A stretch of DNA of 64,000 nucleotides from Candidatus Desulfofervidus auxilii (GTDB taxonomy: Bacteria > Desulfobacterota > Desulfofervidia > Desulfofervidales > Desulfofervidaceae): the NCBI GenBank assembly GCA_030262725.1, contig JAJSZS010000003.1, forward strand, positions 1 through 64,000, given 5' to 3'. Each line of letters opens with the position of its first letter. The stretch's first letter is position 1. Positions 1 to 17,630 of this stretch are shown one piece after another. Under the pieces are notes generated by a model, which was not told the DNA's origin, did no database searches, and worked only from the letters and a program-made list of their open reading frames with translations. The position numbers and the translations under genes are program-made.

Positions 1-855
1 TAAGTCAAAATCTTGAAGCCAAGGACGAATTTTTGTTTTTGCTCCTTTTTCTAAAATAATATTTTTTGCCTGAGACAGTGTTTTATAGACAACCTCATAA
101 GGATGTTTAGCAGGATTGGAAAAACCAAAATTACCGCTATTATAATGAGAAGGATAAACCATAGGGCAGATATAGTCAAAATAATTAAGGATATCAACAA
201 ATTTTTGACCTATCCCTAAGTCATGATTGCAAAAAATACTATAGGCAAAAAAATCAATTGAAATAGGCTTGCCCAATGGTTTTAAATTTTCATAAAAATA
301 TTCAAAGCATTTTTTAATAACTTGCGACTTGCTCTTTTTTTGATCCCATCTTGGATAAACTATTTCATTTAAATTTCCCTCAGATGGAAAACGGATATAA
401 TCAAAGTTTATCTCATCAAAACCAATCTTAATTGCTTTTTTTGCTATTTCTACATTATATTTCCAAGCTTCTTTTGCAGAAGGGTCAACCCATTTCCCTC
501 CAAGGTTATCAGTCCAAAAATCTCCATTTTGCTTTTTTAAAGCAATTGATGGCATCTCAACTGCTAATTTTGAATCTTTAAATACAACAATGCGTCCGAT
601 TAGATAGATTTTTCTTTCATGAAGATTTTTAATTATCTCATCAAGTCTATTAACCCAATCAAAGATTAAATTGCCATGACCATCTTTTACATCAATTACT
701 AATGTATTTAGCTCTGTTCTTTCAACTAAATTAATTATATTTTCAACCTTTTTAGAACTAGCCATATTCCAAATGGTAACAAAAATTCCTTTATGTGGAT
801 CGGCGAATAGAGTGTTTGTCCAAAAAATGACAAGGAAAATAAATAATTTCCACAA
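1..855 (-). CDS. Secreted or lipoprotein TIM-barrel-like protein, partial (C-terminus runs off the window). Possibly a DUF187/GHL10-like glycoside-hydrolase-like protein.
   Basis: Reverse-strand translation gives a signal-peptide-like N-terminus (LILWKLFIFLVIFWTNTLFA) followed by DPHKGIFVTIWNMASS...LVIDVKDGHGN. A TTG start lies near 853-855 behind a GGAAAGAGG Shine-Dalgarno. The ORF runs to position 1. Confidence 0.4.
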   Translation of the reverse strand, partial: MWKLFIFLVIFWTNTLFADPHKGIFVTIWNMASSKKVENIINLVERTELNTLVIDVKDGHGNLIFDWVNRLDEIIKNLHERKIYLIGRIVVFKDSKLAVEMPSIALKKQNGDFWTDNLGGKWVDPSAKEAWKYNVEIAKKAIKIGFDEINFDYIRFPSEGNLNEIVYPRWDQKKSKSQVIKKCFEYFYENLKPLGKPISIDFFAYSIFCNHDLGIGQKFVDILNYFDYICPMVYPSHYNSGNFGFSNPAKHPYEVVYKTLSQAKNIILEKGAKTKIRPWLQDFDL

Positions 856-944: not shown

Positions 945-3900
945 TTAAATATGCAGTTCAATAATGCTTGTTGATGTAAAATCTTTTTTTACTAAGATGT
1001 AGGCTGGTAAAAGTTGTTTAAATTTTTCTAAATGTGTAATAATCCCCACTAATCTATCCTGTTGTTTTAATTGATTAAGCACTTCTGCCACTGCATCTAA
1101 TAGATCCTCATCAAGGCTTCCAAAACCCTCATCAATGAAGAAAAAGTGGATAGGACGTGCCTTTGTCTTTTGAATATATGAAGAAAGGGCAAGAGCTAAA
1201 GAAAAGGAAACCAAAAATGTCTCTCCTCCAGAAAGGGTCTCAATCGGGCGCACATGACCTAAAGACTGGTCATAAATAGAAAAATCAAATTCCTTTTTGC
1301 TCATCTGGATAATAAATTTTTCTCCAATTATATCTTTAAGAATGTAATTGGCTTCATATAAAATATTTTGGAATAAATGTCTGGCTGCAAATTTTACTAA
1401 CGCCTTTCCATAAAGGCAATCTTTTAAAGTGAAAGTTAACCTAATTTCCTCTTCATCTTTTTTGATTTCTGCTTCAAGTTTTTGTTTTTGACTTAATTTT
1501 TGCTCTAAATTTTTTACTTCATTTTCCAATGCCCCTTCTTGATTTTGTAAGTATTTTATTTCTTCTTTTAATCTTTCCAGTTTTTTAAAAGTAGCTTCAG
1601 GTTCACCTGGAGGTAGGATCTGGATGGGCAGGTCGTTTATCTGAGTTGCTATCTGTTTTAATTGCCCTTTGATATTCTCTATTTCTTCTTTCCATTTTTC
1701 AATAGTTTGTTTTAAGGCAAGCATTTCTTTTTCTGAAAGTAAAAGACTTTTTAAGCCTGCTAAATCAAGATGTCTCTTTTTTGTTTCTTTTATAAGAATT
1801 TCTGTTAACTCTTGTTTTCTCTGTATTTTGATCCTTAACTGTTCTTTAGTTTTAACCAATTTTGTTTTGATATTTAAGTAATCATTTTGTGCTTTTTGCC
1901 TTATTTCCTCCAATTTTTGTCTCTTTTTATCTAATTTTTGCCTTTGTTCTTTAACTTGATTAAGGAGTTGCTCAGGAGAGTTTTTGCCAATTTTTTCTAT
2001 TATTTCTGTCTTGATATTTACTAGTTCCTTTTCTAAATTTCCTATCAAACTCAATAAGTGCTTAATTTCTTTTTTATGACCTTCGGCTTTACGCCTTTCT
2101 CTTTGTATTTTTTCTTCTTGCTGTTGCAATTTTTCTGCAATCTCTCTAAGTTCTTCGCTAGCCTTATTTTGCAATTCAAATTTGTTTTGTAATTCATCAA
2201 ACAGATTTTTTAATCCTTTTACATCAAGCCTTAAACCTAATTTCCTTAAAATATTTTCTAGCTCTTTTTCAAAATCAGCAAATTTTTCTGAGTATTGTTG
2301 ATGTTTATCCTGTAATTTGGTATTTATTTGCACCAATTTTTCAACAAGAGGTTTTAAATTTTTTCTAATTTGATTTATTGTTTCTATTTTTTTCTCAAGC
2401 TTTTCTTTTTCCCTCTGAGTGTCTTTTATTTTTGCACTAATCTCCTTATCCTGTGCAGGTTTAGGATGGATAGGAGAACCACAAACAGGACAAGGATGCC
2501 CATGTTTAAGCCTGATGGCCAAACTCACTGCCAGGTGTCTTTGGTGGAAATCTTCTAAAACTTTATCAAAAGTCTTTAATGTCTCCTCACATTTTAGCCT
2601 AAAGTCTTCTAATACATCTACTGCATTTTCAGGTGAAGGCAATTCAATTTCAGGCAGCCATTTCTGCCATATCTTTTTTATTCTTGTCTCGCAGTCTTTT
2701 TTTTCTTTTTTAAATATCTCTATTTTTTGTTTAAGTTCTGCTATTTCCTCTTTCCAGCCTTTTAATTTACCCAAATGAGGAGCATATTTTTGTAAGATAT
2801 TAAAAGTCCTTTTTTCTTCTTCATTGAAGGCATTTCTTTCTAAGGTCTTTTTTGCCCTTTTCTGTCTATGCAACAGGAATTGTTTTTGTGTCCTATATTT
2901 TTTTAAAATATGGGCTATATAATTTAATGCCTGTTTGTTTTCATCTAGCTGTTTTTTATTTTTATCAAGCTGTTTTTGTTTTTCTATAAAATCTTTCTCT
3001 AGTTTCTGCGCCTGTCTGGCGTTTTCTTCCAAATGGGCAAGTTCTTCTAATTTTTGAGGAAGGGTTTCTGCAAATTCTTTTAGTTGTTTTTCTGCAAGTT
3101 GCCATTTTTTCTCTAATTTTGCTTCTTTATTTTGCAAATCTTTTAATAATCTTTCTATTTTAGGGATAGAGCTTTTCAATTCTTCATATTCTTTAAATAT
3201 ATGAGCAAAAGGTGCTATTTCTTCTGCCTGTTTTAAACGCCTTTCTTTCTCTTTTATAATTGGCTCATCTAGCTTTAATTTATTAAGTTTTTCTTCTAAT
3301 TCCTTTTTTCGATATAAAAAATCAGCTAATTTGGTTAAATTTTGGTAATATTTTTCAAGTTTATTTTTGCTTTCTTCCTTTTCTTTTAAAACCTTCTTTA
3401 TTTTTTCAACTTCCTGTTTTTTATCATCTATTACTTTTTTACTTACATCTTTTAATGCCAAAAGTTGTTTTTCTTTTCCTTCCTTTAAGATATTTAACTT
3501 CTCAAAATATTGAGTAACCTTTCTCCATAAAGCTTCACCATAAACCTCAAGTCCAAAAAGCTTTTCTAGCATCTCAGCCCGATTTGCAGGGGAAAGTTTT
3601 AAAAACTCTGAAAACTTCCCTTGGGGTAAAATAACTACCTTTGTAAAGTCTTTAAACTCAAGTCCCAAGATATGATCCAAACGATTGCTTACTTCAGTTA
3701 TTTTTTCTGCAATAGGCTCTTTATGTTCTTTAACTACCTTATAAAGTCTTACATAACTATGGCCATATCTATCTATTCCTCGTATTATCTCATATACTAT
3801 TCCATCAATTTCAAAGTTAAATATTACCTTCAATTGCTTGCTACCTGGATTAATAGCTTCTTTTATAGCCTTTTTATCAAGGCGATCCACCTTCCCAAAA

Positions 3901-4055
3901 AGGGCATAGGTTATAGCATCAAGAATACTAGATTTACCATCACCAGTCTTTCCAAAAATACCAAAAAGGCGATACCGATAAAAAGGACGAAAATCTATAA
4001 TTTGTCGTTCTCTGTAGCTATAAAGACCTTCAATTTCCAAACTAACAGGTTTCAT
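945..4055 (-). CDS. sbcC: SbcC/Rad50-family DNA repair ATPase
   Basis: N-terminal Walker A (GKTGDGKSSILDAI), a very long coiled-coil with a central CPVCG zinc hook, and a C-terminal ABC signature/Walker B (LSGGETF ... FFIDEGFGSLD). Confidence 0.9.
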   Translation of the reverse strand: MKPVSLEIEGLYSYRERQIIDFRPFYRYRLFGIFGKTGDGKSSILDAITYALFGKVDRLDKKAIKEAINPGSKQLKVIFNFEIDGIVYEIIRGIDRYGHSYVRLYKVVKEHKEPIAEKITEVSNRLDHILGLEFKDFTKVVILPQGKFSEFLKLSPANRAEMLEKLFGLEVYGEALWRKVTQYFEKLNILKEGKEKQLLALKDVSKKVIDDKKQEVEKIKKVLKEKEESKNKLEKYYQNLTKLADFLYRKKELEEKLNKLKLDEPIIKEKERRLKQAEEIAPFAHIFKEYEELKSSIPKIERLLKDLQNKEAKLEKKWQLAEKQLKEFAETLPQKLEELAHLEENARQAQKLEKDFIEKQKQLDKNKKQLDENKQALNYIAHILKKYRTQKQFLLHRQKRAKKTLERNAFNEEEKRTFNILQKYAPHLGKLKGWKEEIAELKQKIEIFKKEKKDCETRIKKIWQKWLPEIELPSPENAVDVLEDFRLKCEETLKTFDKVLEDFHQRHLAVSLAIRLKHGHPCPVCGSPIHPKPAQDKEISAKIKDTQREKEKLEKKIETINQIRKNLKPLVEKLVQINTKLQDKHQQYSEKFADFEKELENILRKLGLRLDVKGLKNLFDELQNKFELQNKASEELREIAEKLQQQEEKIQRERRKAEGHKKEIKHLLSLIGNLEKELVNIKTEIIEKIGKNSPEQLLNQVKEQRQKLDKKRQKLEEIRQKAQNDYLNIKTKLVKTKEQLRIKIQRKQELTEILIKETKKRHLDLAGLKSLLLSEKEMLALKQTIEKWKEEIENIKGQLKQIATQINDLPIQILPPGEPEATFKKLERLKEEIKYLQNQEGALENEVKNLEQKLSQKQKLEAEIKKDEEEIRLTFTLKDCLYGKALVKFAARHLFQNILYEANYILKDIIGEKFIIQMSKKEFDFSIYDQSLGHVRPIETLSGGETFLVSFSLALALSSYIQKTKARPIHFFFIDEGFGSLDEDLLDAVAEVLNQLKQQDRLVGIITHLEKFKQLLPAYILVKKDFTSTSIIELHI

Positions 4056-5214
4056 TCTTTAATTCTTCTACAAATTTCAAAAAAAGTCTTACTACAGCTT
4101 CATCTGGTGTTTGATTGTATTTTTCCTTATAAAATTCAACAAAAAGCTCTTCTGGTGTTAAATCTGCTACAGCTATTGGTCTATCAACCCAAAACTTAGG
4201 CATTTCAAAACGAAAACCTAAAAGATTATGACTGTATGCCTGTTTAAGCTTAGCAATTTCTTCAGGACTTGCTGCAATTGCTGGAAAACGCAGAAAAACT
4301 AGACTATTTTTGAAATTCACACTTTGTTCTAAAGCTTCATTAATAGTATTAAAATTAAGAGATTTTACAGGTTTTTGACGAGTAAAAGGATAAAATTCAA
4401 TCTTTCCATCTGGTTGTCTTAATAGCACTCCTTTATTTTGATTTGCTTCCTGTATATCAAAAGGAAAAATAGAGCCAGAGTAAAAAATGTTTTTTCCTAA
4501 ACATTGATAGCGGTGTAAATGACCTAAAGCAATATAATTAGCATATTTTGGGAAAAAATCTAAAGGAATTAATTGTGCTCCACCGATGGTGAAATCCCTT
4601 TCTGAACCAGACTTTTGCCCACCCTGGACAAAAAGATGTGAGACAATAATATATTCGTCTGCTCTATATGGAGGTATGGCCTGCAAAATATTTTTAAGGT
4701 GCACTTCGTAATTTGTGCTAACTTTAAGGCGTGCCTCTGAAGGATATGGCAATAAAAGCAAAGAAATAGATGCATTTTTTGATGGAAAAATAGCCTGAAG
4801 AAAATTCCTTTCTCCTTTAAGCCCAAAATGATTTGTTTTAAAGGAAAAAAGGCTTAAATCATCCTGCGGACTGCCACAAATCACCATCGCATGAAAACCT
4901 GCTGCCAGAGGTTTTGGCACATCAAACTTTTCTGGAGCATCATGATTACCAGCAATAGCAATTACAAGTCTCCTTCCATTAGCCGTTAATTCTCTTAAAG
5001 TGCTATAAAATAATTCCTCAGCCTTAAAAGGAGGATTGTAGCTATCAAAAATATCACCAGCGATAAGTACTACATCCACATCTTCTTTCTCTGTTATTTC
5101 TACAATTTCTTTAAGAATCTCTTGCTGAATTTCCAATAAAGAAAAATCAGTATTTTTAAATGTCTTTCCCAAATGCCAGTCTGCGGTATGAAGTAGTTTA
5201 AGCATTTTAAACAA
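4042..5214 (-). CDS. sbcD: SbcD/Mre11-family nuclease. The ORF track uses a TTG start at 5214. A canonical ATG start lies at 5205, 1 nt after the cas2 stop.
   Basis: Calcineurin-like phosphoesterase motifs: LHTADWHLG, IAGDIFD, GNHD, GHLH. Confidence 0.9.
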   Translation of the reverse strand: MFKMLKLLHTADWHLGKTFKNTDFSLLEIQQEILKEIVEITEKEDVDVVLIAGDIFDSYNPPFKAEELFYSTLRELTANGRRLVIAIAGNHDAPEKFDVPKPLAAGFHAMVICGSPQDDLSLFSFKTNHFGLKGERNFLQAIFPSKNASISLLLLPYPSEARLKVSTNYEVHLKNILQAIPPYRADEYIIVSHLFVQGGQKSGSERDFTIGGAQLIPLDFFPKYANYIALGHLHRYQCLGKNIFYSGSIFPFDIQEANQNKGVLLRQPDGKIEFYPFTRQKPVKSLNFNTINEALEQSVNFKNSLVFLRFPAIAASPEEIAKLKQAYSHNLLGFRFEMPKFWVDRPIAVADLTPEELFVEFYKEKYNQTPDEAVVRLFLKFVEELKNETC

Positions 5215-5497
5215 CTTCTACCTTTTCTTCTTCTAAATAAAAAGGTGTTCTGCCAATATGCTCAATTTTTTCTCTACAATGCTCACAAAGAAAATAATAA
5301 ATTACGCTATCTTCAAGTGGATCAATAATTTTTTCAACCCTTCTCTTCATCTGTTCAAATAAATCTCTTTCAATATAACATTCAAACACACTATAAAGCA
5401 CTCTAAAACCATAATCTTCCATCACCTTTGCTACTTTTCTAAGTCTTTCTTCATCCCTTATATCATAACTTGCCACAATAAATTGTTTTTCTTTCAT
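5207..5497 (-). CDS. cas2: Cas2 (second, distal paralog)
   Basis: 96 aa. Has the N-terminal YDI(R)D acidic motif and a ..RVLYSVFEC.. core. About 45% identical to the adjacent cas2. Confidence 0.85.
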   Translation of the reverse strand: MKEKQFIVASYDIRDEERLRKVAKVMEDYGFRVLYSVFECYIERDLFEQMKRRVEKIIDPLEDSVIYYFLCEHCREKIEHIGRTPFYLEEEKVEVV

Positions 5498-5775
5498 ACA
5501 ATTACAAACTCCTCTTCTTCTGGCACCTCTGCAAATCCACTTATTTCAGCACGCTTGCGACAAGCTCGGCAGATTTGATAAATTCTTACCCTATCTTCCT
5601 TTTCACTTATAATCCTTTCTATCCCTCTTTTTACCTCTACAAGTATCTCCTTTGTCAAAAAACATTCAAACACACTCTTTTGCACCCTATGACCATAATC
5701 TTTTAAAAATTTACGCATCCTATCTCGTCTTTTATCATCAGATATATCATAAGAAATAACAAACAAACTCCTCAT
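5494..5775 (-). CDS. cas2: Cas2 (proximal to cas1)
   Basis: 93 aa. Motifs VISYDISDDKRR...RVQKSVFEC. Overlaps the cas1 stop by 4 nt. Confidence 0.85.
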   Translation of the reverse strand: MRSLFVISYDISDDKRRDRMRKFLKDYGHRVQKSVFECFLTKEILVEVKRGIERIISEKEDRVRIYQICRACRKRAEISGFAEVPEEEEFVIV

Positions 5776-6758
5776 CTAAACACCGCTGCCCTGTATTTAT
5801 CTTCTCCTTTAAGTGCACGCACAAAAAGCCTTGTCTGTTCTTCCATATAGCTTCTATAGCTAATTTTTGCCGCTTTTAAAGGATGTGTTACTTTTTCTGC
5901 CATTTTCCTTTCAAATTGAGAAATAAACTTTCGCCATCCATCTCTAGCCAAATAAAGCCCCTCTTCATCTTTTGTAAAATCCTCTTCTTTTATAACCTTA
6001 AGATTAAAAATACTTAAAATCAATGTATCAACAATTACTGGTCTCCATTCTTCCATCAAATCTAACACTAAAGAAGGTCTACCATAATCTATTGTATGAT
6101 AACAACCAAAATATGGGTCTAATCCAACCATGCTTATAATGGAAAAAATATTGCTAAAAAGCAGTGTATAACCAAGGCTTAAAAGAGCATTAACTGGATC
6201 TTTAGGTGGTCTGCGCTCCCGTTTTAAAAAATTAACCTCCTCTAAAAAACCTTTTGCATAGGCAGAAAAATATAATCTACTTGCACTTCCTTCAATCCCT
6301 CTCAAACTTTCTATATTTGTTTCTTCATCTACCTTTTGAACAAACTTTTTTAATTTCAAAATAGTATCCTCAAGCCCAAGTCCCTTCCTATTTATCCTCC
6401 TAAGTAACATCCTTTGATTTTCTATCTTTCCTTTTATAACTGCCTTTGCTATCTCAAGTTTAAAATCAAACTCTTTTAATCTTTCAAATTGTTTTATCCT
6501 AAGTTCTATATTTTTGCTCATCAAAGGAGAAAGTCTCCCTAAATATTTACCTGATGTGGTAAGAAAAACTGTGTCAATTCCCCTTTTAAGCAAAGTAAAA
6601 ATCACTGCTGGAGAAAGGGAAATCCTTCCAATTATGACTAATTGTTCAAGATTATGAAAATGAATTACTTTTAAGACCTTACCTTCTTTTTTAGCAATTA
6701 ATCTTTCTCCATCCTTATGAAGGCTTAAACCTTGTTCTATTGCATAAAAAATGGACAT
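5772..6758 (-). CDS. cas1: Cas1 integrase
   Basis: 328 aa with a typical Cas1 N-terminus (ISLSPAVIFTLLKRGIDTVFLTTSGKYLGRL). Position immediately upstream of cas2. Confidence 0.9.
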   Translation of the reverse strand: MSIFYAIEQGLSLHKDGERLIAKKEGKVLKVIHFHNLEQLVIIGRISLSPAVIFTLLKRGIDTVFLTTSGKYLGRLSPLMSKNIELRIKQFERLKEFDFKLEIAKAVIKGKIENQRMLLRRINRKGLGLEDTILKLKKFVQKVDEETNIESLRGIEGSASRLYFSAYAKGFLEEVNFLKRERRPPKDPVNALLSLGYTLLFSNIFSIISMVGLDPYFGCYHTIDYGRPSLVLDLMEEWRPVIVDTLILSIFNLKVIKEEDFTKDEEGLYLARDGWRKFISQFERKMAEKVTHPLKAAKISYRSYMEEQTRLFVRALKGEDKYRAAVFR

Positions 6759-6759
6759 A

Positions 6760-8472
6760 TTATTTTCTTAAAATCAAATTTTCTCCTTCAAGCATTAATC
6801 TTATGCCTTCAATTTCATATTCTTTTAAACCCTTCTTTAAAAATGCCTTTTTTAACTCTTTTTCAAGTTTTTGAAGCTTCCATTCAATCCTTTCCTTTTC
6901 TTGATAAAACTCTATAAATATCTTTATTAAATGTTTTAATGAACTTCTTTTTAAACTAAATCTATCTTCCTCAGGTGGTACAAGATAACGATTTATATGC
7001 AATAAAGGAGAAGGATAACGTCCATCACTTAAATCAAACACACAATGACAGTCAAGACTTAGGCTTAATTCTGGCACAAGCTCTCTAATTTTTATACAGC
7101 TTATAGGATTTGGTTTCATAGCCTTTAATATTCGTTTAACTTTAAAAAAATTATAATCAGGTGTAGGATAAAGAATCTGATGCAACAAATTATTATTAAG
7201 CAGACCTATTGTATAAAACAAAATAAGTTTTTCTTGATAATTGAGTATCCGACCTGCTTGTGCTTTCTTTACTAACATATCAATAATTGGACAATTTTCC
7301 CTAAGTTTATTTAATATTTCTTCACTCCCCTTTTTCTCTATCTCTTTTACTCTACGCCTTATAAATGTCTTTATTTCCAAAGGATTAAATTCATTTATTC
7401 TTTTTAAAAATTTAATCTGCTCTAAATAAGGCTCCCCATTTTCATCAATAAAAAGACTCCTTTCATTTGTCTCTTTATTAAGTCCAAGAGGTAGAAAGAT
7501 TGGAGTTTCTTTCCAGCCTATACCAACTGGTTTTGTAGGCAAAAGTGGCTCAACCACAATACCAAACTCAGGATAAGGCAATCTTTGTATAATTTCTCTT
7601 AAAAATCTTTTTACTTGCAAAAAATGAATAAAATCTTCTAAAAATATCCATAAGCGATAAAAAAATTGATTAACCCTTTCTAAATAAGCAGGTATATCAA
7701 AAACATTATTGAGTGTTTTTTGTGCTTCAAGACAATAATCTCTTAATTTTTCGCTCTTTAACATTAAATAGGCTGGCTGTCTTGCATAAAGAAATTTTTC
7801 TCTTTTAGAAATAAAAAAAGCAATAATTCCAGATTTTACATGATTATCACTTCTTAAAGGGAAAAAGAAAAGTGTTTTTTGTCCTAAGATATGTGCTCTT
7901 GCAAAATCTGGCATAAGTGGAAGATTATAAAAAATCAATTGTGAAAGGGCAGTCTTTTTATCCAAAATTTGTTCTGCAAATCCTCTTTCTTTACCAGAAA
8001 AAAGCCTTAAAAAGATTTCTATTTCTTCTTTGCCAAGACTTGGTGGAAAATACCTAATTAATGAATCCTTTTTCTCAATCCCTTTTAAACTTTCACTTGC
8101 CCCTTTTAAATCAAGCTCCTCTAAAAGATTAACCCAATAATTATTTATTTCTTTATCATCTGGAATAAGCTTTATTAACTTTTTAAATGCTCCAAAAGCC
8201 TTTTCTAAAAATCCTGTCTCATAAAAGAGAATAGCCAAAGGTTTTAAATAACGAGGATTGTTGGGAGAAAGTTTTAAAGCCAATCCATAACTTTCTATTG
8301 CCTTTTTTGCTATACCAAGCAATTCAAAAGTCTTTCCCCATTCATAATAAAGCTCTGGGTCATTAAAATCTTTTGAGAAATATCTTAATGCTAATTCTAT
8401 TGCTTTGCCTTCATGCCCTTTTTCAAGCTCTTGCTTGATTAATTTTAGGCAATGATAGCCTACCTGCTGCAT
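6760..8472 (-). CDS. Uncharacterised 570-aa protein. N-terminal TPR repeats (~110 aa) followed by a ~450-aa domain I cannot assign. Translationally coupled to cas1.
   Basis: Long ORF with no internal stops. TPR-like N-terminus (AIELALRYF...YYEWGKTFELLGIAKKAIESYGLALKLSPNNPRY). Its stop codon is 1 nt before the cas1 ATG. Confidence 0.75.
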   Translation of the reverse strand: MQQVGYHCLKLIKQELEKGHEGKAIELALRYFSKDFNDPELYYEWGKTFELLGIAKKAIESYGLALKLSPNNPRYLKPLAILFYETGFLEKAFGAFKKLIKLIPDDKEINNYWVNLLEELDLKGASESLKGIEKKDSLIRYFPPSLGKEEIEIFLRLFSGKERGFAEQILDKKTALSQLIFYNLPLMPDFARAHILGQKTLFFFPLRSDNHVKSGIIAFFISKREKFLYARQPAYLMLKSEKLRDYCLEAQKTLNNVFDIPAYLERVNQFFYRLWIFLEDFIHFLQVKRFLREIIQRLPYPEFGIVVEPLLPTKPVGIGWKETPIFLPLGLNKETNERSLFIDENGEPYLEQIKFLKRINEFNPLEIKTFIRRRVKEIEKKGSEEILNKLRENCPIIDMLVKKAQAGRILNYQEKLILFYTIGLLNNNLLHQILYPTPDYNFFKVKRILKAMKPNPISCIKIRELVPELSLSLDCHCVFDLSDGRYPSPLLHINRYLVPPEEDRFSLKRSSLKHLIKIFIEFYQEKERIEWKLQKLEKELKKAFLKKGLKEYEIEGIRLMLEGENLILRK

Positions 8473-8968
8473 AAAAATATTTTGCTTTTTGTAAAAAATT
8501 ATCTAATTGCTGATAAATCTTCCTTTCTTTAGCAAGTGCGGCAATTTCTTCCCTGCTTCAACTAAAGCATTTTCTACCTTTTTAAATAAGCATCAATATC
8601 TTTAGAATATTTGCATTTTATCATTTTCATACTAATTATCTTTACCACATTTGTAGCCATCAAGTAAATGTTTAAAATTTCCAAAATGGTAATAATCAAT
8701 GCTCTTTTTCTGAATATCTCCAATAAAATTCTTAATTGACTGCTTAATCTACCCTCCCACAAATCCTAAAGTCAGATTTAGAGGCAAAAGACAAAAAGAA
8801 AAATAAAGGAAATTTGCGGGCTTATCCAAAATTTTCTACATCACAAATTCTTTTAGGAAAACAGAGATTTGAACAGATAATAAATTGTTTTGGGCTGTTT
8901 TAACATCCCATCCATGGGATTTTTGCCATCTATCCACTTATCTCCTTCTGTTTTAAGACATTCCTTTC

Positions 8969-9920
8969 TTATTTTATTCTTATTTCTATCCATATTTCTT
9001 CACAAAGAATTTCTTCTACAATTTCATCAATAATTTTTGGACTTCTCTCTTCAGGATAAATTAAAGCTTTTATAAGAGGTTTATTAAAAGTCTTTAAAAT
9101 TTCCCTACCAGTATTTGTTATACGATTTTTGTTTTGGTCTAATCTTTCCAATTCCCCTCTTGTAGTCATAGGTAAAAGATAGTTCCTTATAAAAATTTCT
9201 TCTGTCAGATCTTTTTCTTGAAATGCTTTAATAAAAATATCCTTAGCATAAAATCCTTGATTTTTGGGATCGTCTTTATATAATTCTAGTAAGTCATAAT
9301 ATTTTCTATCAAAATTCATCTTAAAAAATGGAATAAAACGGAATTGAAATTTTTTGGGATCTTCACTAGGGGGAGAAAGATATTTTGTATATTCTGAGGC
9401 GCCTAAAAATGTATAATAAATTCGTCCTACTCTTCCACTCAATAAAGCTACTTGTAACAAAGCAGCATTCATAATATTTGTACCACCAGTAATATTACAC
9501 CATATTTGTTTACCTTGCTTTTTACCTTCGCTAAATTTAAGAAATGCCGCTGCCATACGTTCAAAACAAATTTCATAATCATTTTCATTTACAGTGCAAA
9601 TAAAAAGAGTGCTTTTTTTTAGGGAGAATGTTTTTTAAACGGTTTTTTATAAATTTTTCTATAATTTCAATTAAAGTCTTATTCCTTAAAGTTGTACCTT
9701 GAACACTTCCATATTTATTGTCAACACACTCTTTAACAAGCTCTTCTCCTTTACTTACTGCCTGTGAAACAAAAATTACTACACTCTCAATCCTTTCATC
9801 AAAATCCTTTCCTACTAAATCAGAAAATCTCTCAGGATGTGCTTTAATATAAGCTAAAGCAGAAGTCACAGCTCCAGGTGCTTTACCTACTGTAGCAAAA
9901 TGGACTACACCCATAATCAC
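8969..9920 (-). pseudogene. CARF-wHTH (Csa3-like) protein, split by a +/-1 frameshift in a T8 homopolymer (9613-9620). The two ORFs are 9585-9920 and 8969-9556.
   Basis: N-terminal part shows a CARF strand-1 motif (VVHFATVGKAPGAVTSALAYI). C-terminal ORF shows the CARF signature (NITGGTNIM) and a wHTH-like tail (RITNTGREIL). The reading frame switches inside the A8 run on the coding strand. Confidence 0.6.
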
Positions 9921-10609
9921 TCACCTCCAAACCATTGATTGAAATATTCTGGCTTCCTCTCTAAAATACTTCGTAGCACTTTTCCTCTCTGGTTTTTAGA
10001 CAATTTGTGATAAAGTTTTTTACAAGCAATTTCAGCAATAAATTCCCAATCTTTAGCCTTATCTAATTCTTCCGTAAAAAAACGCTTTTCTTCTTCTATT
10101 TTCTCCTGACAATATTTTTTCATCATTAATTCTATCTCCATTCTATTTGCAGAAAATATGTGTGAACCTCTTCTTATGGGAATTTCTTTTGAGTCTATAT
10201 TTACCTCCGAATGTTGCAAGTTTCGTTTAAACATATAAGGAGGATTGTCTGAGTAAATTTCTATAACTATTATTTTTTTACCTTCAATCTCAAACTCTTC
10301 ACAATTTACCCTAGGCACAGGCTCTATCCATTCTGATAAAATTTGATAAATCATCTGACTTAATTGGTCTATTGAGATTTTAGAACAACCTACAATAGGA
10401 GACTCTTCAGAAGATGAGTGTTTTTCATCTTTTATACCAACGATTATATAACCTATTTCTTGGGACAAAGTATTTGCTATAGCAGCTACAAGCTTAGCAA
10501 ATTTTGCCTTATTGGGCTTATTACTTAAATCTAACCTTTCCTTAAAATCTATTTTTTCTATTTCTCTGTGTATCTTGATGATTTCTAAAAGTTCTTTTTT
10601 AGAAAGCAT
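9917..10609 (-). CDS. AlbA_2/Schlafen-like putative DNA-binding domain protein, embedded in the csm operon
   Basis: Pattern matches the AlbA_2 domain: E.EKIDFKERLDL ... AKLVAAIANTLSQEIGYIIVGIKDE ... EFEIEGKKIIVIEIYSDNPPYMFKR. Overlaps both neighbours by 1-4 nt. Confidence 0.5.
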   Translation of the reverse strand: MLSKKELLEIIKIHREIEKIDFKERLDLSNKPNKAKFAKLVAAIANTLSQEIGYIIVGIKDEKHSSSEESPIVGCSKISIDQLSQMIYQILSEWIEPVPRVNCEEFEIEGKKIIVIEIYSDNPPYMFKRNLQHSEVNIDSKEIPIRRGSHIFSANRMEIELMMKKYCQEKIEEEKRFFTEELDKAKDWEFIAEIACKKLYHKLSKNQRGKVLRSILERKPEYFNQWFGGE

Positions 10610-10610
10610 C

Positions 10611-11831
10611 TTAAATTTTTTCCAACTTTACCCATCCTAAAAGATTTTTAGGTTCTCCCATTGCATTTGTAATTACCCGCCTTGTTTTAGGAAACTCTTC
10701 TTTTGTCCGCCAGCGTCTGATGAAGGAAATAGCTTGTCTTAACATTTTATAAACTTGCGGACTGTCTTGTTTTAATTTCAAATCAACCGTTATACTTAAA
10801 AATCCCTGCCCTGCTCCTAATCGCAATAAGGGTGTGTCAGGTCTATTTTGCGTTTTTAAAAATTGTATTTTTTTAAAGATCTCAGGATAATTCCGAAAGT
10901 ATTTCTCTTCATGTTCTAAAAGAGTTTTAGCTTTATAAAAACAGATATTAAAAAGTCCATCTAAAGATAAGTATTTTTCAAATTTTTTATGCCCTAATTT
11001 TTCTAAAAATAAAGATTTCTTTTCTATGTTTAGAGTTGCAATAACTTCCACACCAGCAGATATAGCTTCAAGCCAGGTTTTAGTATAACATTTTGTAGCA
11101 AGACTTTGAGTAAGATAAATCTTAAGATAACTTAAAGGTAAAGGTTGAGTGTCAGCAATAGAGATAAATTTAAAAAAATCATATTTTGCATCAGATCTTC
11201 CATAACAAAGTATTTTAGATTCTAATTCTTTTGCTATTTGCTCCAGTTTTTTTCTTTTATTTTGTGGAGAAAGACCACTTTTATGGATTTTTTGATAATA
11301 TTCTTTTATTTTTATCTCAACTTCCTTAAAAAAACTTTTATCTTGCGTAAGAAAAAAGGAAAGAAAAGCCGTTCGTAAAGCTCCTTTTATTTCTGTTCCA
11401 GGTATGTACGGATTAAACGATGGAGTTTTAAGACAAGTTTTAAACCCATCCTGTGTAGGTTGTACTTCAAATGGAATTCTATAGAGGCAAAATTTTTTAA
11501 CAATAGAAGAAATATTTGTCTCTAATCTATTCTTAAGAAACCAATGGATATCAAGCCTTTGCTCTATTTCTCTTTTTTGTTTTTTTAATCTTCGCAAAAA
11601 TTCAAAGTTATCCCCTGCTGATTTTATCTTTTCTTCTATATCATCTATTTGAGCTAATAGGTTTTCCATCCAGTTTAAAAAGCTTTCTCTTTCTTTTTCA
11701 GAAAAATCTGCAAGCAACCTTTCTATATCAAGCACATAAACCCATCCTTTATCAATAATATAAGAAAGAGGTTTTAAGCTATTTCCATCTCCAATATGTA
11801 CAGGGGTAAGGGTGATAAGTTTTATACGCAT
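10611..11831 (-). CDS. csm5: Csm5 (Cas7-group RAMP)
   Basis: ITLTPVHIGDG N-terminus and an IPGTEIKGALRTAF G-rich loop. 406 aa. Position downstream of csm4. Confidence 0.8.
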   Translation of the reverse strand: MRIKLITLTPVHIGDGNSLKPLSYIIDKGWVYVLDIERLLADFSEKERESFLNWMENLLAQIDDIEEKIKSAGDNFEFLRRLKKQKREIEQRLDIHWFLKNRLETNISSIVKKFCLYRIPFEVQPTQDGFKTCLKTPSFNPYIPGTEIKGALRTAFLSFFLTQDKSFFKEVEIKIKEYYQKIHKSGLSPQNKRKKLEQIAKELESKILCYGRSDAKYDFFKFISIADTQPLPLSYLKIYLTQSLATKCYTKTWLEAISAGVEVIATLNIEKKSLFLEKLGHKKFEKYLSLDGLFNICFYKAKTLLEHEEKYFRNYPEIFKKIQFLKTQNRPDTPLLRLGAGQGFLSITVDLKLKQDSPQVYKMLRQAISFIRRWRTKEEFPKTRRVITNAMGEPKNLLGWVKLEKI

Positions 11832-12946
11832 TTTTTACTTACCTCTATTTTGGCAAATATAGGAAAGGCAATACCATCATAAAATGTATCATCTTGTCCG
11901 ATTTTTCCTATAGCTATGAGTTTTCCGTAACTTTCTTTTTTAGATAAAAATGTAAATAAAGATCCCTCTTCAAAGCAGCGTATTAGTTTTTTAAAAATCC
12001 CTCGGTTATCATAGGAATACAAGGTATCTAATTTTGCTCTCAAGTTTAAAATATTCCATAAAGAAAGAGATAAATCTATCTCATCTTTTACAGGCACATA
12101 TCTTGAAAGTGTTATAAAAACATTAGGATTTTGAACAGCAGGCGGCTCATATTTTTCTATTTGAAACCTGAAGTGTCCTTTTCCTGCAGTTCTCTCTCCA
12201 CCTATGCCTGTATCGGCTAAAAATCGTAAAAGAGAATGTATAAACTCTTTGTCTTTTGTTTTTATAAGAAACCACAAACCACAACAGGTATGAAAAAATA
12301 TCTCTTTTCTGAAAAATAAAAATCCTTCACCTGTAGAAAAGGAAATCCTGTCAATTTGATTTTTTTGAATATCTATTTCCTTAAAAAGGTATTTATCTAT
12401 TAGCTCGCCCTCAGGGTCTATTTGCCTCCTTTCTTCAGTAGTAATCAAACAAAAACCGTATTTTTCTATATCTGTTTTTATGCTCCCTCTCTTTTTTAAC
12501 CAAAAACATATTTTAGAATACCCAAAGTTACCCTTTATCATTCCCCAAAAGATGTTTTCTGAGACATATCTAATTCTTTTAAAATCTTTTAATCTTTCAC
12601 TGATTCTCAAAAAAGCCAAGTTAAAGTTTAAAACTTCATCCTGTGTGATAATTTCTCCTATTCTCTTCTGTTTTTCTATTAGTTTTTTTCTTTCTTCATA
12701 ATCTGGATCAGGCAGAAGTGGTTTAGGAAAAAAATGAATTTTCCTATCGCTATTAAATACGCAAGGAAAACTAGAACTTAAAATAAATGGAGGAGAGTTT
12801 TCTATAAAGGCCGAAAGGGTCTCTTTAAGTCTTTTTTTGCCGTAGAGATGGAAAATTGCCCAGCAAAAGGCACCAAATAAGGTATCAGAAGCAGGCCATG
12901 TAGTAAAAGAAGACTTTGGGTATAAATAAACTGCATAAGTTTGCAT
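11822..12946 (-). CDS. csm4: Csm4 (Cas5-group RAMP)
   Basis: N-terminal YPKSSFTTWPASDTLFGAFCWA signature. Confidence 0.85.
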   Translation of the reverse strand: MQTYAVYLYPKSSFTTWPASDTLFGAFCWAIFHLYGKKRLKETLSAFIENSPPFILSSSFPCVFNSDRKIHFFPKPLLPDPDYEERKKLIEKQKRIGEIITQDEVLNFNLAFLRISERLKDFKRIRYVSENIFWGMIKGNFGYSKICFWLKKRGSIKTDIEKYGFCLITTEERRQIDPEGELIDKYLFKEIDIQKNQIDRISFSTGEGFLFFRKEIFFHTCCGLWFLIKTKDKEFIHSLLRFLADTGIGGERTAGKGHFRFQIEKYEPPAVQNPNVFITLSRYVPVKDEIDLSLSLWNILNLRAKLDTLYSYDNRGIFKKLIRCFEEGSLFTFLSKKESYGKLIAIGKIGQDDTFYDGIAFPIFAKIEVSKKCV

Positions 12947-12951
12947 AGAAA

Positions 12952-13905
12952 TTACTCCACATTAGGAAAATTCTCAATAATTTGTTTAACAGTAATTATT
13001 TCCCTCTCTATCTCACCTTTAATTGGATGAACAAATTTTTCTTTTATAGGCTGTATCTTATTCAGACTTTCTACAATTTCATCCTTACCATCTGTTTTTC
13101 CTGTTTGGTAATATTCTTTAGAATGAAACTCTATAAAGTTTTTATTTTTTTTATTTTCAAATATAAATTTTATCTTCCCATATCCTCTGCTTCCAGATCC
13201 CCCAAGGCTGCTATCTTCTAGAAGAAGCATAGCAGTGAAAACATCCTTTAAAAGCTTTTTATCTTCATTACGATAAATGTCAAAAATTATTTCTAACTGA
13301 AACTCTGATCCTGCAGGCACTCTTTCCATTGGACGGGGAGTAGCTTGAGAGGTAATCCGATCAATGGTATTTTCTGTCTTAATCTCTGTATATGTTGCTT
13401 CACCTAAAAGTGTTTGCCATAAATTTATAGTGTCATCTACAGGAAAAGCATCTCTTATTGTGATTCTAGTAGGCTGTGCCCCTGATGCAGTTGCAGATGT
13501 TCCAAAAATTAAACAAATTTCGCATTCGTTTATTAATTCTTTTAATTTTTTTTCAATTTCTTGCTTTTTTTCTTCTTCTTTTTCCTTATTTTTTGCTTGT
13601 TGATATTTTCTAAGCTCTGCCTTCAGTTGCTTAATTTCAGGATGGTTTTCACAAGAATGGGCAGGAAATTTATTTTTATCATCTGAATATACTTTTCCCA
13701 ATTTCCACTCTAAAAGACACCGCATCTTTCCCTTTAGAGAAGAACCAGGAATGTATGGATAACCAGTTAAGGGGTCTTTTATAACCACATTATCAACTCC
13801 ACCTATTTCTATTCCTTCTTGAGTACCGCCGATATGAAGACCTGTTTCAAGTCTGACAATACCCTTAATTAAGTATTTTCCTAAAAAGCTAAGTTCTTGT
13901 TGCAT
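12952..13905 (-). CDS. csm3: Csm3 (Cas7 backbone subunit) with a zinc-finger insertion
   Basis: GLHIGG and a GSSLKGKMR G-rich loop. CxxH...CEIC insertion. 317 aa. Confidence 0.85.
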   Translation of the reverse strand: MQQELSFLGKYLIKGIVRLETGLHIGGTQEGIEIGGVDNVVIKDPLTGYPYIPGSSLKGKMRCLLEWKLGKVYSDDKNKFPAHSCENHPEIKQLKAELRKYQQAKNKEKEEEKKQEIEKKLKELINECEICLIFGTSATASGAQPTRITIRDAFPVDDTINLWQTLLGEATYTEIKTENTIDRITSQATPRPMERVPAGSEFQLEIIFDIYRNEDKKLLKDVFTAMLLLEDSSLGGSGSRGYGKIKFIFENKKNKNFIEFHSKEYYQTGKTDGKDEIVESLNKIQPIKEKFVHPIKGEIEREIITVKQIIENFPNVE

Positions 13906-13907
13906 TT

Positions 13908-14339
13908 TTACCCTCCACGAGGATAATGATATTTATGATATGCTATAATTGCTTCCAAGAAATCAGCTAAGCGAAGAAAATCTTCATTTGTTTGGAGAAT
14001 TTCCTTACGTAAGCATATTTTTAATACTTTCTGATAGAATTCTTTTGGTATAAGTCCTCTTCCTACTGAATATACTAAAACAGGCAAAAGCTTAGCTACC
14101 TGTGCAAAATCAAATGGATCATTAGGTTTACGGCTTATCTTTCTAGAAATTGCTTTAATTTCGTTGAAAAATTTCCGCAATTGAGTCATTTTTAACTCTT
14201 TTGCATTTTGGACAATTTTATCTGCAAGTCCACCTTCGTCACAAAATTCTTTGTAGTCTAATTCTTTAAAAGAATGAAGCTCGCGTAAACGTTCTTCTAT
14301 TTCTTTAAAACCCTTCTTTTTTTTAGATTCTTCTTTCAT
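13908..14339 (-). CDS. csm2: Csm2 (Cas11 small subunit)
   Basis: 143-aa helical protein with the TQLRKFFNEIKAI motif. Position between cas10 and csm3. Confidence 0.75.
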   Translation of the reverse strand: MKEESKKKKGFKEIEERLRELHSFKELDYKEFCDEGGLADKIVQNAKELKMTQLRKFFNEIKAISRKISRKPNDPFDFAQVAKLLPVLVYSVGRGLIPKEFYQKVLKICLRKEILQTNEDFLRLADFLEAIIAYHKYHYPRGG

Positions 14340-14340
14340 A

Positions 14341-16848: not shown

Positions 16849-17630
16849 ATGCCTTTATTTGTAATTCTAATTCCGCCCCTTTCAACCTCCACTAATCCAT
16901 AATGCTCAAGGCGGTTAATTTCGTCTGCGTATTTGTTTATTAATTCTTCAAATTCCTTATTGCTTTTTGTTTTTTTGTCAGAAAGCATCTCTAAAACCTT
17001 TAATTCATTTCCCCTTGGTAGGTAAAAAAGTGGAGGAAATTTGATTATGTCTTTAAATTCTTCATGCATATAATAAACCTCACAACCTGTAAGAAAACCA
17101 GCAAGGGCACTAGTAATTACATGTGCCTTAAATCCACCTGTAGGATTAAAGACAACTTTATATCCTTCTTTTTTCTTTTTACTAGCAAGATAAATGAAAC
17201 GATCAAGAATGTCAGTTAGTCCTTTAATAAATTCATCTGCTGCTGTTTCTAAAGGTCTATCAAAATAGCCAGGAAATTGAGGTGAGCTATACATTGCGCA
17301 ATTTAACCCTTCTTTAAAATACTTTTCAATTGTTCTTAAGGCAATTTCATTAGAGGCAGTTTGTGTACCAGATAAATAGATTTCACAAGTTGCAGGATTG
17401 ATACTGTGCTTTTCACAATATTTTAAAAAAGAATTCAATTCAGCAGATCTTTCTCTAGGTTTTTCAGAAAGAAAATCATAAATCTTTTTAAAAAAAGATG
17501 AATCATTTATAACTTCTAACCATATTTCATCACCCATTCCTGCATTTTTTACCTTTGAATCATCTATGTTTTTTTGATAATTTGCAATAAGACTATTGCC
17601 TACAGTAATTAAATGAAACTCCTTTTTCAT
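16815..17630 (-). CDS. CARF-wHTH protein (Csa3-like putative cOA-responsive regulator)
   Basis: CARF motifs HLITVGNSLIANY and FNPTGGFKAHVITSALAGF. C-terminal wHTH-like segment (LKVLEMLSD...GLVEVERGGIRITNKG). No R-X4-6-H HEPN motif found. Confidence 0.7.
   Translation of the reverse strand: MKKEFHLITVGNSLIANYQKNIDDSKVKNAGMGDEIWLEVINDSSFFKKIYDFLSEKPRERSAELNSFLKYCEKHSINPATCEIYLSGTQTASNEIALRTIEKYFKEGLNCAMYSSPQFPGYFDRPLETAADEFIKGLTDILDRFIYLASKKKKEGYKVVFNPTGGFKAHVITSALAGFLTGCEVYYMHEEFKDIIKFPPLFYLPRGNELKVLEMLSDKKTKSNKEFEELINKYADEINRLEHYGLVEVERGGIRITNKGIWTCGCLKEGK

What the first reader, a model, noticed from the sequence alone, without database searches (positions are those of the whole stretch)
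945..5214. sbcD-sbcC are fused to the 3' end of the cas1-cas2-cas2 operon
The sbcD ATG lies 1 nt after the second cas2 stop, and sbcC overlaps sbcD. The Mre11/Rad50-type nuclease therefore appears to be co-transcribed with the adaptation genes. There is no cas4 here. SbcCD processes hairpin and DNA ends, so it could generate or trim prespacers, much as RecBCD/AddAB do in type I and II systems.
Basis: partly seen in the sequence, partly recalled or inferred. Interest (0 to 1): 0.6.

Follow-up and report, generated by a model that had tools for sequence, protein, structure and literature searches.

The report
SbcCD repair nuclease abutting CRISPR adaptation operon
An ordinary SbcCD DNA-repair nuclease gene pair sits one base after the last gene of a CRISPR spacer-acquisition operon and is probably transcribed with it, but close relatives lose either partner while keeping the other, so the link looks like inherited neighbourhood rather than a dedicated CRISPR function.

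Summary
On the minus strand, cas2b ends with TAA at 5209-5207, one base follows, and the sbcD ATG is at 5205. sbcC (4055-945) overlaps sbcD by 14 nt. No promoter-like or terminator-like site lies near the junction, so co-transcription is likely.

The window comes from a Candidatus Desulfofervidus MAG with a type III-A locus. SbcD and SbcC are canonical and all catalytic motifs are intact.

Comparative data argue against a dedicated adaptation role:
- A strain about 97.6% identical (L029) keeps CAPP-cas1-cas2-cas2 intact but retains only deletion scars of sbcDC.
- A sister population keeps intact sbcDC under purifying selection. Upstream it has either decayed cas remnants plus a toxin-antitoxin insertion, or an unrelated EamA gene.
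- Related CAPP modules outside the clade are followed by cas6 where the contig shows the downstream gene, not sbcCD.
- The nearest SbcD orthologues outside the clade have no cas neighbours.
- Synonymous divergence is discordant: about 0.4 for sbcDC against 1.2-3 for CAPP, cas1 and cas2a.

Verdict: a lineage-specific synteny that arose once. A functional recruitment of SbcCD is not excluded but is unsupported.

The parts
945..4055 (-). sbcC (1036 aa), a Rad50-type ABC ATPase. Walker A GKTGDGKS at residue 35, zinc hook CPVC at 522, signature LSGGE at 941, Walker B FFIDEGFG at 972, H-loop ITH at 1006.
   Evidence: The best family matches are sbcc_Bac (341 bits) and TIGR00618 (259 bits). The best PDB match is E. 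coli SbcC, 6s6v_C.
4042..5205 (-). sbcD (387 aa), an Mre11-type metallophosphoesterase. Motifs DWH at residue 9, GDIFD at 50, GNHD at 86, SHLF at 189, GHLH at 228.
   Evidence: TIGR00619 scores 175 bits, above its cut-off. It is 100% identical to the NCBI protein 'exonuclease subunit SbcD [Candidatus Desulfofervidus auxilii]'.
5203..5209 (-). cas2b/sbcD junction: TAA stop (5209-5207), one base (5206), ATG (5205-5203).
   Evidence: The identical junction is found in L006 and in the L029 scar.
5207..5497 (-). cas2b (96 aa).
   Evidence: It is conserved as the second of two tandem cas2 genes in the CAPP-A1 modules seen whole.
5494..5775 (-). cas2a (93 aa), about 40% identical to cas2b.
5772..6758 (-). 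cas1 (328 aa).
   Evidence: PF01867, 320 bits.
6760..8472 (-). CAPP, a CRISPR-associated primase-polymerase type A1 (TPR + AEP, 570 aa). It is the first gene of the tightly packed unit.
   Evidence: (NF040561, 305 bits against a cut-off of 200).
8473..8968 (-). 496-nt gap without a long ORF upstream of CAPP. It is the likely promoter region of the CAPP-to-sbcC unit; a weak sigma-70-like match lies at 8663-8635.
   Evidence: This is an inference only.
8969..17630 (-). Type III-A genes: CARF7-type protein, cas10/csm1, csm2, csm3, csm4, csm5, then a SLFN/AlbA_2 protein, a 111-aa ORF and a CARF-only 195-aa ORF.
17956..18639 (+). CRISPR array: 8 copies of the 36-nt repeat GTTAGAAACCTTGACCCGATTTGAGGGGATTGCGAC plus a degenerate terminal copy. 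Spacers are 36-47 nt.
1..855 (-). 5' part of a DUF4015-family gene directly downstream of sbcC; it runs off the window. In L029 this gene follows the sbcDC deletion scar and is itself followed by a second CRISPR array.

Best explanation
A canonical, catalytically intact SbcCD (bacterial Mre11/Rad50) repair-nuclease operon lies immediately downstream of a CAPP-cas1-cas2a-cas2b spacer-acquisition operon. The locus is a type III-A CRISPR-Cas locus in a Candidatus Desulfofervidus genome.

Because there is no intergenic space, sbcDC is most likely expressed by read-through from the adaptation-operon promoter. sbcD translation would be coupled to termination of cas2b. Both steps are inferred.

The juxtaposition arose once in the ancestor of a narrow clade, probably by a rearrangement at the 3' end of the adaptation module. 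Related modules carry a convergent cas6 at that position, and the window has no cas6. The arrangement has since been inherited passively.

SbcCD does its usual job of processing hairpins and blocked DNA ends. It is not an obligate or specialised component of adaptation. Any contribution to prespacer supply would be the generic, in-trans kind already known for E. coli SbcCD.
For: 1. Packing and signals. The gaps from CAPP to sbcC are +1, -4, -4, +1 and -14 nt. There are no promoter-like or terminator-like sites near the junction.

2. Canonical identity. SbcD and SbcC family matches, PDB matches and all catalytic motifs are as expected for SbcCD. PADLOC gives only generic SMC-like similarity.

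3. Each partner is lost while the other is kept.
- L029 is 97.6-97.8% identical to the window on both sides. It has CAPP, cas1, cas2a and cas2b intact (dN/dS 0-0.24). Of sbcDC only about 78 nt, 69 nt and 20 nt remain.
- L001 and L015 keep intact sbcD and sbcC behind fused remnants of CAPP, cas1 and cas2b plus a TumA/TumE-like insertion.
- L007 and L008 carry a sbcDC 99% identical to that of L001 behind a divergent EamA gene. It is the same chromosomal locus: the left flank of L015 equals that of L008 at 99.4%.
- sbcDC dN/dS is 0.10-0.25 for every window and L006 comparison, with or without cas neighbours. The exception is one near-identical pair, L008 v L001, at 0.35 on dS 0.02, which is uninformative.

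4. In L006 both cas2 genes are frameshifted while sbcD is intact.

5. No recurrence.
- Three CAPP-A1 lineages outside the clade (L023/24, L025, L026/27) end in a convergent cas6.
- SbcD orthologues at 46-50% identity sit among housekeeping genes.

6. Discordant history. Between the window and the sister lineage, dS is 0.41 for sbcD and 0.26-0.37 for sbcC. It is 0.72 for cas2b, 1.97 for cas2a, about 3 for cas1 and 1.18 for CAPP.
Against: - The junction has survived considerable divergence. sbcD dS is about 1.0 between the window and L006, yet the TAAAATG junction is identical.
- In the sister lineage the inserted TA pair keeps sbcD translationally coupled; the TumE stop overlaps the sbcD start.
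- In the window lineage sbcDC lies between cas2b and a second CRISPR array, as seen in L029, so it is inside an array-bounded locus.
- The locus lacks cas4.
- CAPP modules elsewhere carry variable nuclease or helicase partners: Ago and a RecD-like helicase (PMC8211822).
- E. coli SbcCD does contribute to primed adaptation, redundantly with RecBCD (PMC6896009).
- Whether the genome has a second sbcCD, recBCD or addAB could not be checked.
- Metagenomic contigs can carry assembly errors, which affects the L006 frameshifts.
Confidence: 0.7

Rival explanations
1. Functional recruitment. In this clade SbcCD is co-expressed with CAPP-Cas1-Cas2a-Cas2b. It supplies or trims DNA ends or hairpins into prespacers and so substitutes for the missing Cas4 or RecBCD-type function. 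It would be a facultative accessory, lost when adaptation is not under selection.
For: - Operon-like packing.
- The junction is conserved in L006 and in the L029 scar, and coupling is kept across the TA insertion in L028 and L016.
- No cas4 in the window.
- The position in L029 between cas2b and a second array.
- Precedent for SbcCD in E. coli primed adaptation (PMC6896009).
- Variable partners of CAPP modules (PMC8211822).
Against: - Each partner is lost while the other is kept: L029 against L001, L007 and L008.
- No sbcCD in three other CAPP-A1 lineages whose downstream gene is visible.
- Nearest orthologues are not CRISPR-linked.
- Selective constraint on sbcDC does not differ between cas-linked and cas-free alleles.
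- The sequence is canonical, with no extra domain.
- A published census of CRISPR-linked genes does not mention SbcC, Mre11 or Rad50 in its text.
Confidence: 0.15
2. Defence-island cargo. sbcDC in this population is a variable accessory gene pair that rides in a hypervariable defence region holding CRISPR-Cas, TumAE and AbiEii-like genes. It acts as a stand-alone anti-invader nuclease, for example against hairpin-forming or end-exposed phage DNA, independently of adaptation.
For: - Presence/absence polymorphism of sbcDC in two lineages (L029, L018/L019).
- Both flanks of the sbcDC block differ between lineages.
- Neighbours include TA modules and an AbiEii-like gene.
- The genome-contig scan returned no Desulfofervidus locus with a close sbcD.
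Against: - Best matches are to bona fide SbcC and SbcD, not to defence-system models.
- The L007 upstream region is housekeeping: aro genes, RadA and polyprenyl synthase.
- Outgroup orthologues lie in housekeeping contexts.
- No relatives were found on viral contigs.
Confidence: 0.1
3. Artefact: the cas2b-sbcD junction is a chimeric MAG assembly join.
For: The source is a MAG, and the homology blocks break exactly at the sbcD ATG.
Against: Independent contigs from other samples carry the same junction (L006; the L029 scar) or its TA-interrupted derivative (L016, L028, L001, L015).
Confidence: 0.01

Closest known systems
Bacterial SbcCD (Mre11/Rad50) nuclease, e.g. E. coli SbcCD (PDB 6S6V, 7YZO) and the SbcD structure 7DOG
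   Same: - sbcD and sbcC overlap as an operon.
- SbcD carries all five phosphoesterase motifs.
- SbcC has Walker A and B, the signature motif, the H-loop, a long coiled coil and a CxxC zinc hook.
- The best family and PDB matches are to SbcC and SbcD.
   Different: It has no promoter region of its own and abuts cas2b. SbcC scores below the strict NCBIfam cut-offs (259 bits against 478.5 for TIGR00618), consistent with a divergent lineage.
CAPP-Cas1-Cas2(-Ago) operon of Marinitoga piezophila and other CAPP_A TPR-type modules (Zabrady et al. 2021, PMC8211822)
   Same: - TPR-AEP primase-polymerase directly upstream of cas1 and cas2.
- Type III context.
- No cas4.
- A further nucleic-acid enzyme encoded just downstream of cas2.
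   Different: The downstream genes here are sbcD and sbcC rather than Argonaute. There are two tandem cas2 genes. The sbcDC partner is absent from the other CAPP-A1 modules examined, whereas the paper calls the Ago proximity 'conserved' and shows a physical interaction.
Host repair nucleases feeding CRISPR adaptation: RecBCD, AddAB and SbcCD/RecJ in E. coli type I-E (Kurilovich et al. 2019, PMC6896009)
   Same: It is the same enzyme family (SbcCD) for which a contribution to spacer acquisition has genetic support.
   Different: In E. coli sbcCD is unlinked to cas genes and acts in trans, redundantly with RecBCD. No functional data exist here.
Cas4 (PD-(D/E)xK, Fe-S nuclease of adaptation modules)
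   Same: It occupies the position of an adaptation-operon nuclease in a locus without cas4.
   Different: The fold and chemistry are unrelated. Cas4 co-occurs widely and recurrently with cas1-cas2, forms a complex with them and recognises the PAM. None of this is shown or suggested for this SbcCD.

Membership tests
SbcCD (bacterial Mre11/Rad50) | SbcD: calcineurin-like phosphoesterase with Mre11 motifs I-V. | tested here: met
   DWH at residue 9, GDIFD at 50, GNHD at 86, SHLF at 189, GHLH at 228. TIGR00619 scores 175 bits against a cut-off of 77.65. PDB 7dog matches at E = 2.5e-31.
SbcCD (bacterial Mre11/Rad50) | SbcC: split ABC ATPase head, long coiled coil and CxxC zinc hook. | tested here: met
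   Walker A at residue 35, CPVC at 522, LSGGE at 941, Walker B at 972, ITH at 1006. E. coli SbcC 6s6v_C matches at E = 3.7e-39.
SbcCD (bacterial Mre11/Rad50) | SbcC scores above the curated family cut-off. | tested here: not met
   TIGR00618 scores 259 bits against 478.5. NF041752 scores 341 bits against 1420. SbcC models are still the best hits by a wide margin, so this is read as divergence, not as a different family.
SbcCD (bacterial Mre11/Rad50) | ATP-dependent hairpin and end nuclease activity. | not testable with these tools
   Needs biochemistry.
CRISPR-associated (cas or accessory) gene | Recurrent linkage to cas loci in independent lineages. | tested here: not met
   The linkage occurs only within one Desulfofervidus-like clade. 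It is absent from three other CAPP-A1 lineages whose downstream gene is visible and from SbcD orthologues at 46-50% identity. No large-scale census was possible.
CRISPR-associated (cas or accessory) gene | Co-retention or co-loss with the cas genes it serves. | tested here: not met
   L029 has the adaptation genes intact and sbcDC deleted. L001, L015, L007 and L008 have sbcDC intact and the adaptation genes decayed or replaced.
CRISPR-associated (cas or accessory) gene | A distinct clade or domain architecture relative to housekeeping homologues. | tested here: not met
   The architecture is canonical. The nearest relatives outside the clade sit in non-CRISPR contexts. No formal tree was built.
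CRISPR-associated (cas or accessory) gene | Co-transcription with cas genes. | tested here: inconclusive
   The 1-nt gap and the absence of predicted promoter or terminator favour it. There are no transcript data.
CAPP type A1-Cas1-Cas2 adaptation module | A TPR-AEP primase-polymerase above the family cut-off, directly upstream of cas1 and cas2 in a type III locus. | tested here: met
   NF040561 scores 305 bits against 200. PADLOC PrimPol 'adaptation polymerase' scores 309 bits. The csm1-5 genes and an array are adjacent.
Cas4 | PD-(D/E)xK nuclease with a four-cysteine Fe-S cluster. | tested here: not met
   SbcD is a metallophosphoesterase. No Cas4 family hit was found anywhere in the window.
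Lamassu (LmuB SMC-like) or other SMC-type defence systems | An LmuB-type ATPase partnered with an LmuA effector, and a best match to defence models. | tested here: not met
   LmuB scores 122 bits against 341 bits for SbcC models. The partner is a bona fide SbcD.

The most novel reading that the evidence does not exclude
In this Desulfofervidus clade SbcCD has been co-opted as a facultative, co-transcribed accessory of the CAPP-Cas1-Cas2a-Cas2b machinery. It would open or trim DNA ends and hairpins, perhaps products of CAPP strand-displacement synthesis, into integration-competent prespacers in a cas4-less type III system. Its independent loss in some strains would then reflect relaxed selection on adaptation rather than lack of function.
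Probability: 0.12. Interest if true: 0.6.

Novelty: new member of a known kind. Interest (0 to 1): 0.27.

Why it matters
If the link were functional, it would name a prespacer-processing nuclease for cas4-less, CAPP-type type III adaptation modules, whose prespacer source is unknown. It would also tie the E. coli genetic evidence for SbcCD in adaptation to a natural operon.

As it stands, the value is mainly cautionary. A 1-nt, operon-like junction with cas2 can be an inherited accident. Strain-level metagenomic variants, which show each partner lost independently and discordant synonymous divergence, can separate such synteny from real functional coupling.

The locus also documents a conserved CAPP-cas1-cas2-cas2 four-gene module, and a hotspot for rearrangement and toxin-antitoxin insertion just after cas2b.

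Tried and rejected
- **Second sbcCD in the same genome.** This could not be tested. The genome-contig scan with SbcD returned only three distant Thermodesulfobacteriota MAGs and no Desulfofervidus locus. Exact-sequence look-ups of the window's SbcD and SbcC were not on record, so the contig beyond the window's left end was not seen. Inside the window, tblastn finds only the self hits.
- **Mobile or viral carriage.** Scans of viral contigs with SbcD and with CAPP found nothing.
- **Known defence-system component.** PADLOC gives only generic SMC-like matches. Rejected.
- **Published SbcCD-CRISPR gene linkage.** The CAPP paper mentions SbcCD only as background on E. coli, and its supplements hold no SbcC, SbcD, exonuclease, Rad50 or Mre11 terms. 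The text of the CRISPR-linked gene census preprint has no SbcC, SbcD, Mre11, Rad50 or SMC.
- **Assembly artefact.** Rejected because independent contigs carry the same junction.
- **Internal promoter or terminator at the junction.** None was predicted. These are consensus scans only and may not fit this organism.
- **cas6 and Card1 in the window.** I searched with proteins from related loci and found none.

Full report
**1. What is in the window**

All relevant genes are on the minus strand. In the direction of transcription the order is as follows.

- A CRISPR array at 17956-18639. It has 8 copies of a 36-nt repeat ending ATTGCGAC on the plus strand, plus one degenerate copy.
- A type III-A set: a CARF7-type protein, cas10/csm1, csm2, csm3, csm4 and csm5.
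- A SLFN/AlbA_2 protein, a 111-aa ORF and a CARF-only 195-aa ORF.
- A 496-nt gap.
- Six tightly packed genes:
  - a TPR-AEP protein at 8472-6760, which is a CRISPR-associated primase-polymerase (CAPP) type A1 (NF040561, 305 bits against a cut-off of 200)
  - cas1 (6758-5772)
  - cas2a (5775-5494)
  - cas2b (5497-5207)
  - sbcD (5205-4042)
  - sbcC (4055-945)

The spacings from CAPP to sbcC are +1, -4, -4, +1 and -14 nt. The cas2b stop TAA, one A, and the sbcD ATG read TAAAATG. One correction applies: the unit starts with CAPP, not cas1.

A consensus scan finds no sigma-70-like site on the minus strand between 6631 and 1702. It finds no terminator-like hairpin between 7545 and 2488. This is compatible with read-through and with translational coupling, but it is not transcript evidence.

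**2. Identity of the nuclease**

- SbcD passes TIGR00619 and has all five Mre11 motifs.
- SbcC has Walker A and B, the signature motif, the H-loop and a CPVC zinc hook.
- The best solved-structure matches are SbcD (7dog, 6s6v) and E. coli SbcC (6s6v_C).
- PADLOC gives only generic SMC-like similarity: LmuB at 122 bits, against 341 bits for an SbcC model.

This is a canonical and apparently active SbcCD. SbcC falls below the strict NCBIfam cut-offs, which I read as lineage divergence.

No cas4, no cas6 and no second sbcCD were found in the window. This covers the ORFs of at least 100 aa that were scanned, plus the tblastn searches. The rest of the window is ordinary chromosome, with ruvCAB, relA/spoT, proS, ispG, dxr and similar genes.

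**3. Source and relatives**

SbcD is 100% identical to an NCBI protein from a Candidatus Desulfofervidus auxilii MAG, on a contig of 154,866 nt. A metagenome scan with SbcD and context look-ups gave a set of strain-level variants.

Window lineage:
- L029 is 97.6% identical to the window over CAPP to cas2b. It is 97.8% identical over the gene downstream of sbcC, a DUF4015-family gene.
- Between them L029 keeps only about the first 78 nt of sbcD, a 69-nt internal piece, and the last 20 nt or so of sbcC.
- So sbcDC was deleted while the adaptation genes stayed intact (dN/dS 0-0.24).
- In L029 a second CRISPR array with the same repeat follows the DUF4015 gene.

A more distant lineage:
- L006 is 82% identical at the nucleotide level and has the same TAAAATG junction.
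- Its cas2a carries a 1-nt insertion and its cas2b a 14-nt duplication. Both are frameshifts.
- Its sbcD is intact.
- These frameshifts could be assembly errors.

Sister lineage (sbcDC about 90% identical to the window):
- L028 and L016 have intact card1-CAPP-cas1-cas2a-cas2b. A TumA/TumE-like toxin-antitoxin pair follows, and its stop overlaps the sbcD start.
- L001 and L015 have only fused remnants: the CAPP N-terminus, the cas1 C-terminus and the cas2b C-terminus. The same TA insertion follows, then intact sbcD and sbcC.
- L007 and L008 have a sbcDC 99% identical to that of L001. It lies behind a divergently oriented EamA transporter gene and a 65-nt intergenic region, in a housekeeping neighbourhood.
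- The left flank of L015 equals that of L008 at 99.4%. These are therefore alleles of one chromosomal locus.
- L018 and L019 are the EamA allele with sbcD cut after 68 nt.

**4. Tests of a functional link**

- *Independent loss.* Either partner is lost while the other is kept. L029 shows one direction. L001, L015, L007 and L008 show the other.
- *Constraint.* sbcD and sbcC have dN/dS of 0.10-0.25 in every window and L006 comparison, including cas-free alleles. One near-identical pair (L008 v L001, dS 0.02) gives 0.35, which is uninformative.
- *Recurrence among CAPP modules.* Outside the clade, L023/24 (67% CAPP identity), L025 (57%) and L026/27 (53%) are CAPP-cas1-cas2-cas2 followed by a convergent cas6. 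In L025 a HepT/MNT toxin-antitoxin pair lies between. None has sbcCD. A fourth lineage, L030/31 (55%), ends inside cas2b, so its downstream gene is unknown.
- *Recurrence among SbcD orthologues.* The nearest SbcD orthologues outside the clade are 46-50% identical and come from Thermodesulfobacteriota MAGs. They lie next to speE, peptidase M48, murJ and similar genes, with no cas genes within the loci.
- *History.* Between the window and the sister lineage, dS is 0.41 for sbcD and 0.26-0.37 for sbcC. It is 0.72 for cas2b, 1.97 for cas2a, about 3 for cas1 and 1.18 for CAPP. That is as high as against the outgroup module L023. The adaptation module and sbcDC have therefore not co-diverged. The module has been exchanged or recombined, with a breakpoint near cas2b, while sbcDC behaves like a flanking chromosomal gene.

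**5. Interpretation**

The most economical reading is as follows. A rearrangement at the 3' end of a CAPP-type adaptation module placed it against the start of sbcD in an ancestor of this clade. Related modules carry a convergent cas6 at that position, and the window has no cas6.

The arrangement was then inherited, so sbcDC is probably transcribed from the adaptation-operon promoter. The site just after cas2b is also a hotspot for insertion: TumAE in this clade and HepT/MNT in L025. Nothing indicates specialisation of this SbcCD for adaptation.

- SbcCD does contribute to primed adaptation in E. coli, redundantly with RecBCD (PMC6896009).
- CAPP modules elsewhere have variable partners, such as Ago and a RecD-like helicase (PMC8211822).

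I put that reading at about 0.12-0.15.

**6. Literature**

- The CAPP paper mentions SbcCD only as E. coli background. Its supplements hold no SbcC, SbcD, exonuclease, Rad50 or Mre11 terms.
- The text of a census preprint of CRISPR-linked genes does not mention SbcC, SbcD, Mre11, Rad50 or SMC.
- In what I could search, this particular linkage appears unreported. However, its parts are known kinds, and the linkage looks incidental.

**7. Limits**

- I could not see the rest of the MAG, so I cannot say whether it has a second sbcCD, recBCD, addAB or cas6.
- No transcript data are available.
- The recurrence test rests on a handful of loci, not a census.
- The metagenomic contigs may contain errors.
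- No formal phylogeny was built.

**Scores**

- Interest: 0.27.
- Novelty: new member of a known kind.
- Confidence in the incidental-synteny explanation: 0.7.

Noticed in passing
window 5207-8472; loci L023-L031: CAPP type A1, cas1, a 93-95-aa cas2 and a 96-aa cas2 form a conserved four-gene module in the relatives seen whole. The two tandem cas2 genes are only about 40% identical to each other. This suggests a Cas2 heterodimer or a division of labour, which the CAPP paper as read here does not describe.
   Followed up: partly
window 1-64000; compare L023 4158-5117, L025 10041-10979, L026 12284-13246: Related CAPP modules have a convergent cas6 overlapping the end of cas2b. The window has no cas6 homologue anywhere by tblastn, so crRNA processing for this type III-A locus must rely on a cas6 elsewhere or be defective.
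   Followed up: partly
L029 5212-5495, just beyond the window's left end: In the 97.6%-identical strain a second CRISPR array with the same repeat follows the DUF4015 gene, with its degenerate trailer end towards that gene. In the window lineage sbcDC and the DUF4015 gene therefore probably sit between cas2b and a second array.
   Followed up: partly
L016 581-1273; L028 4043-4700; L001 838-1421; L025 9152-10029: The site just after cas2b is a repeated target for toxin-antitoxin insertions. An MJ0235-family plus TumE (PF20126) pair is found in the sister lineage, with its stop overlapping the sbcD start. A Polbeta/HepT pair is found in L025.
   Followed up: partly
window 5207-8472 against 945-5205, compared with L028, L001 and L008: Synonymous divergence jumps from about 0.3-0.4 (sbcDC) to 0.7 (cas2b) and then to 1.2-3 (cas2a, cas1, CAPP) across the junction. 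This indicates that the adaptation module was exchanged by recombination while sbcDC was kept.
   Followed up: yes
window 8473-9556: The 195-aa ORF has only a Card1-type CARF domain and no nuclease domain. It is followed by a 496-nt stretch with no long ORF. Relatives encode full-length Card1 (CARF plus endonuclease, about 400 aa). This may be a truncated effector.
   Followed up: partly
window 9585-10609: A SLFN/AlbA_2-domain protein (230 aa; PADLOC candidate PDC-S50) and an unannotated 111-aa ORF lie between csm5 and the CARF ORF. They may be type III accessory genes.
   Followed up: no
window 17956-18639: Spacers in this array are long and variable: 36-47 nt, mostly 43-47. The repeat ends in ATTGCGAC on the plus strand. 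From my own knowledge, that is the usual 8-nt crRNA tag of type III repeats. It implies that the array is transcribed divergently from the csm genes, with a 325-nt shared leader and promoter region at 17631-17955.
   Followed up: no
L018 72-139; L019 41-108; L029 3854-3999: Two independent deletions of sbcDC, in different lineages and upstream contexts, both retain the first 70-85 nt of sbcD.
   Followed up: no
window 18832-21193: Next to the trailer end of the array lie a 367-aa protein with a C-terminal Nudix domain (PADLOC candidate PDC-S07) and a PIN-domain protein (141 aa). The Nudix protein has an unannotated N-terminal region of about 230 aa.
   Followed up: no
window 31770-36933: A VWA-domain protein (580 aa) is followed by an 1146-aa protein with HEAT repeats and two MoxR/dynein-type AAA+ modules. 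This looks like a MoxR-VWA pair of unusual size.
   Followed up: no
window 37785-38105 and about 38833-38892: There is a fragment of a DDE transposase (106 aa). Nearby, a 60-nt intergenic stretch is 80% identical to a site in L018 and L019. The cause is unknown.
   Followed up: no
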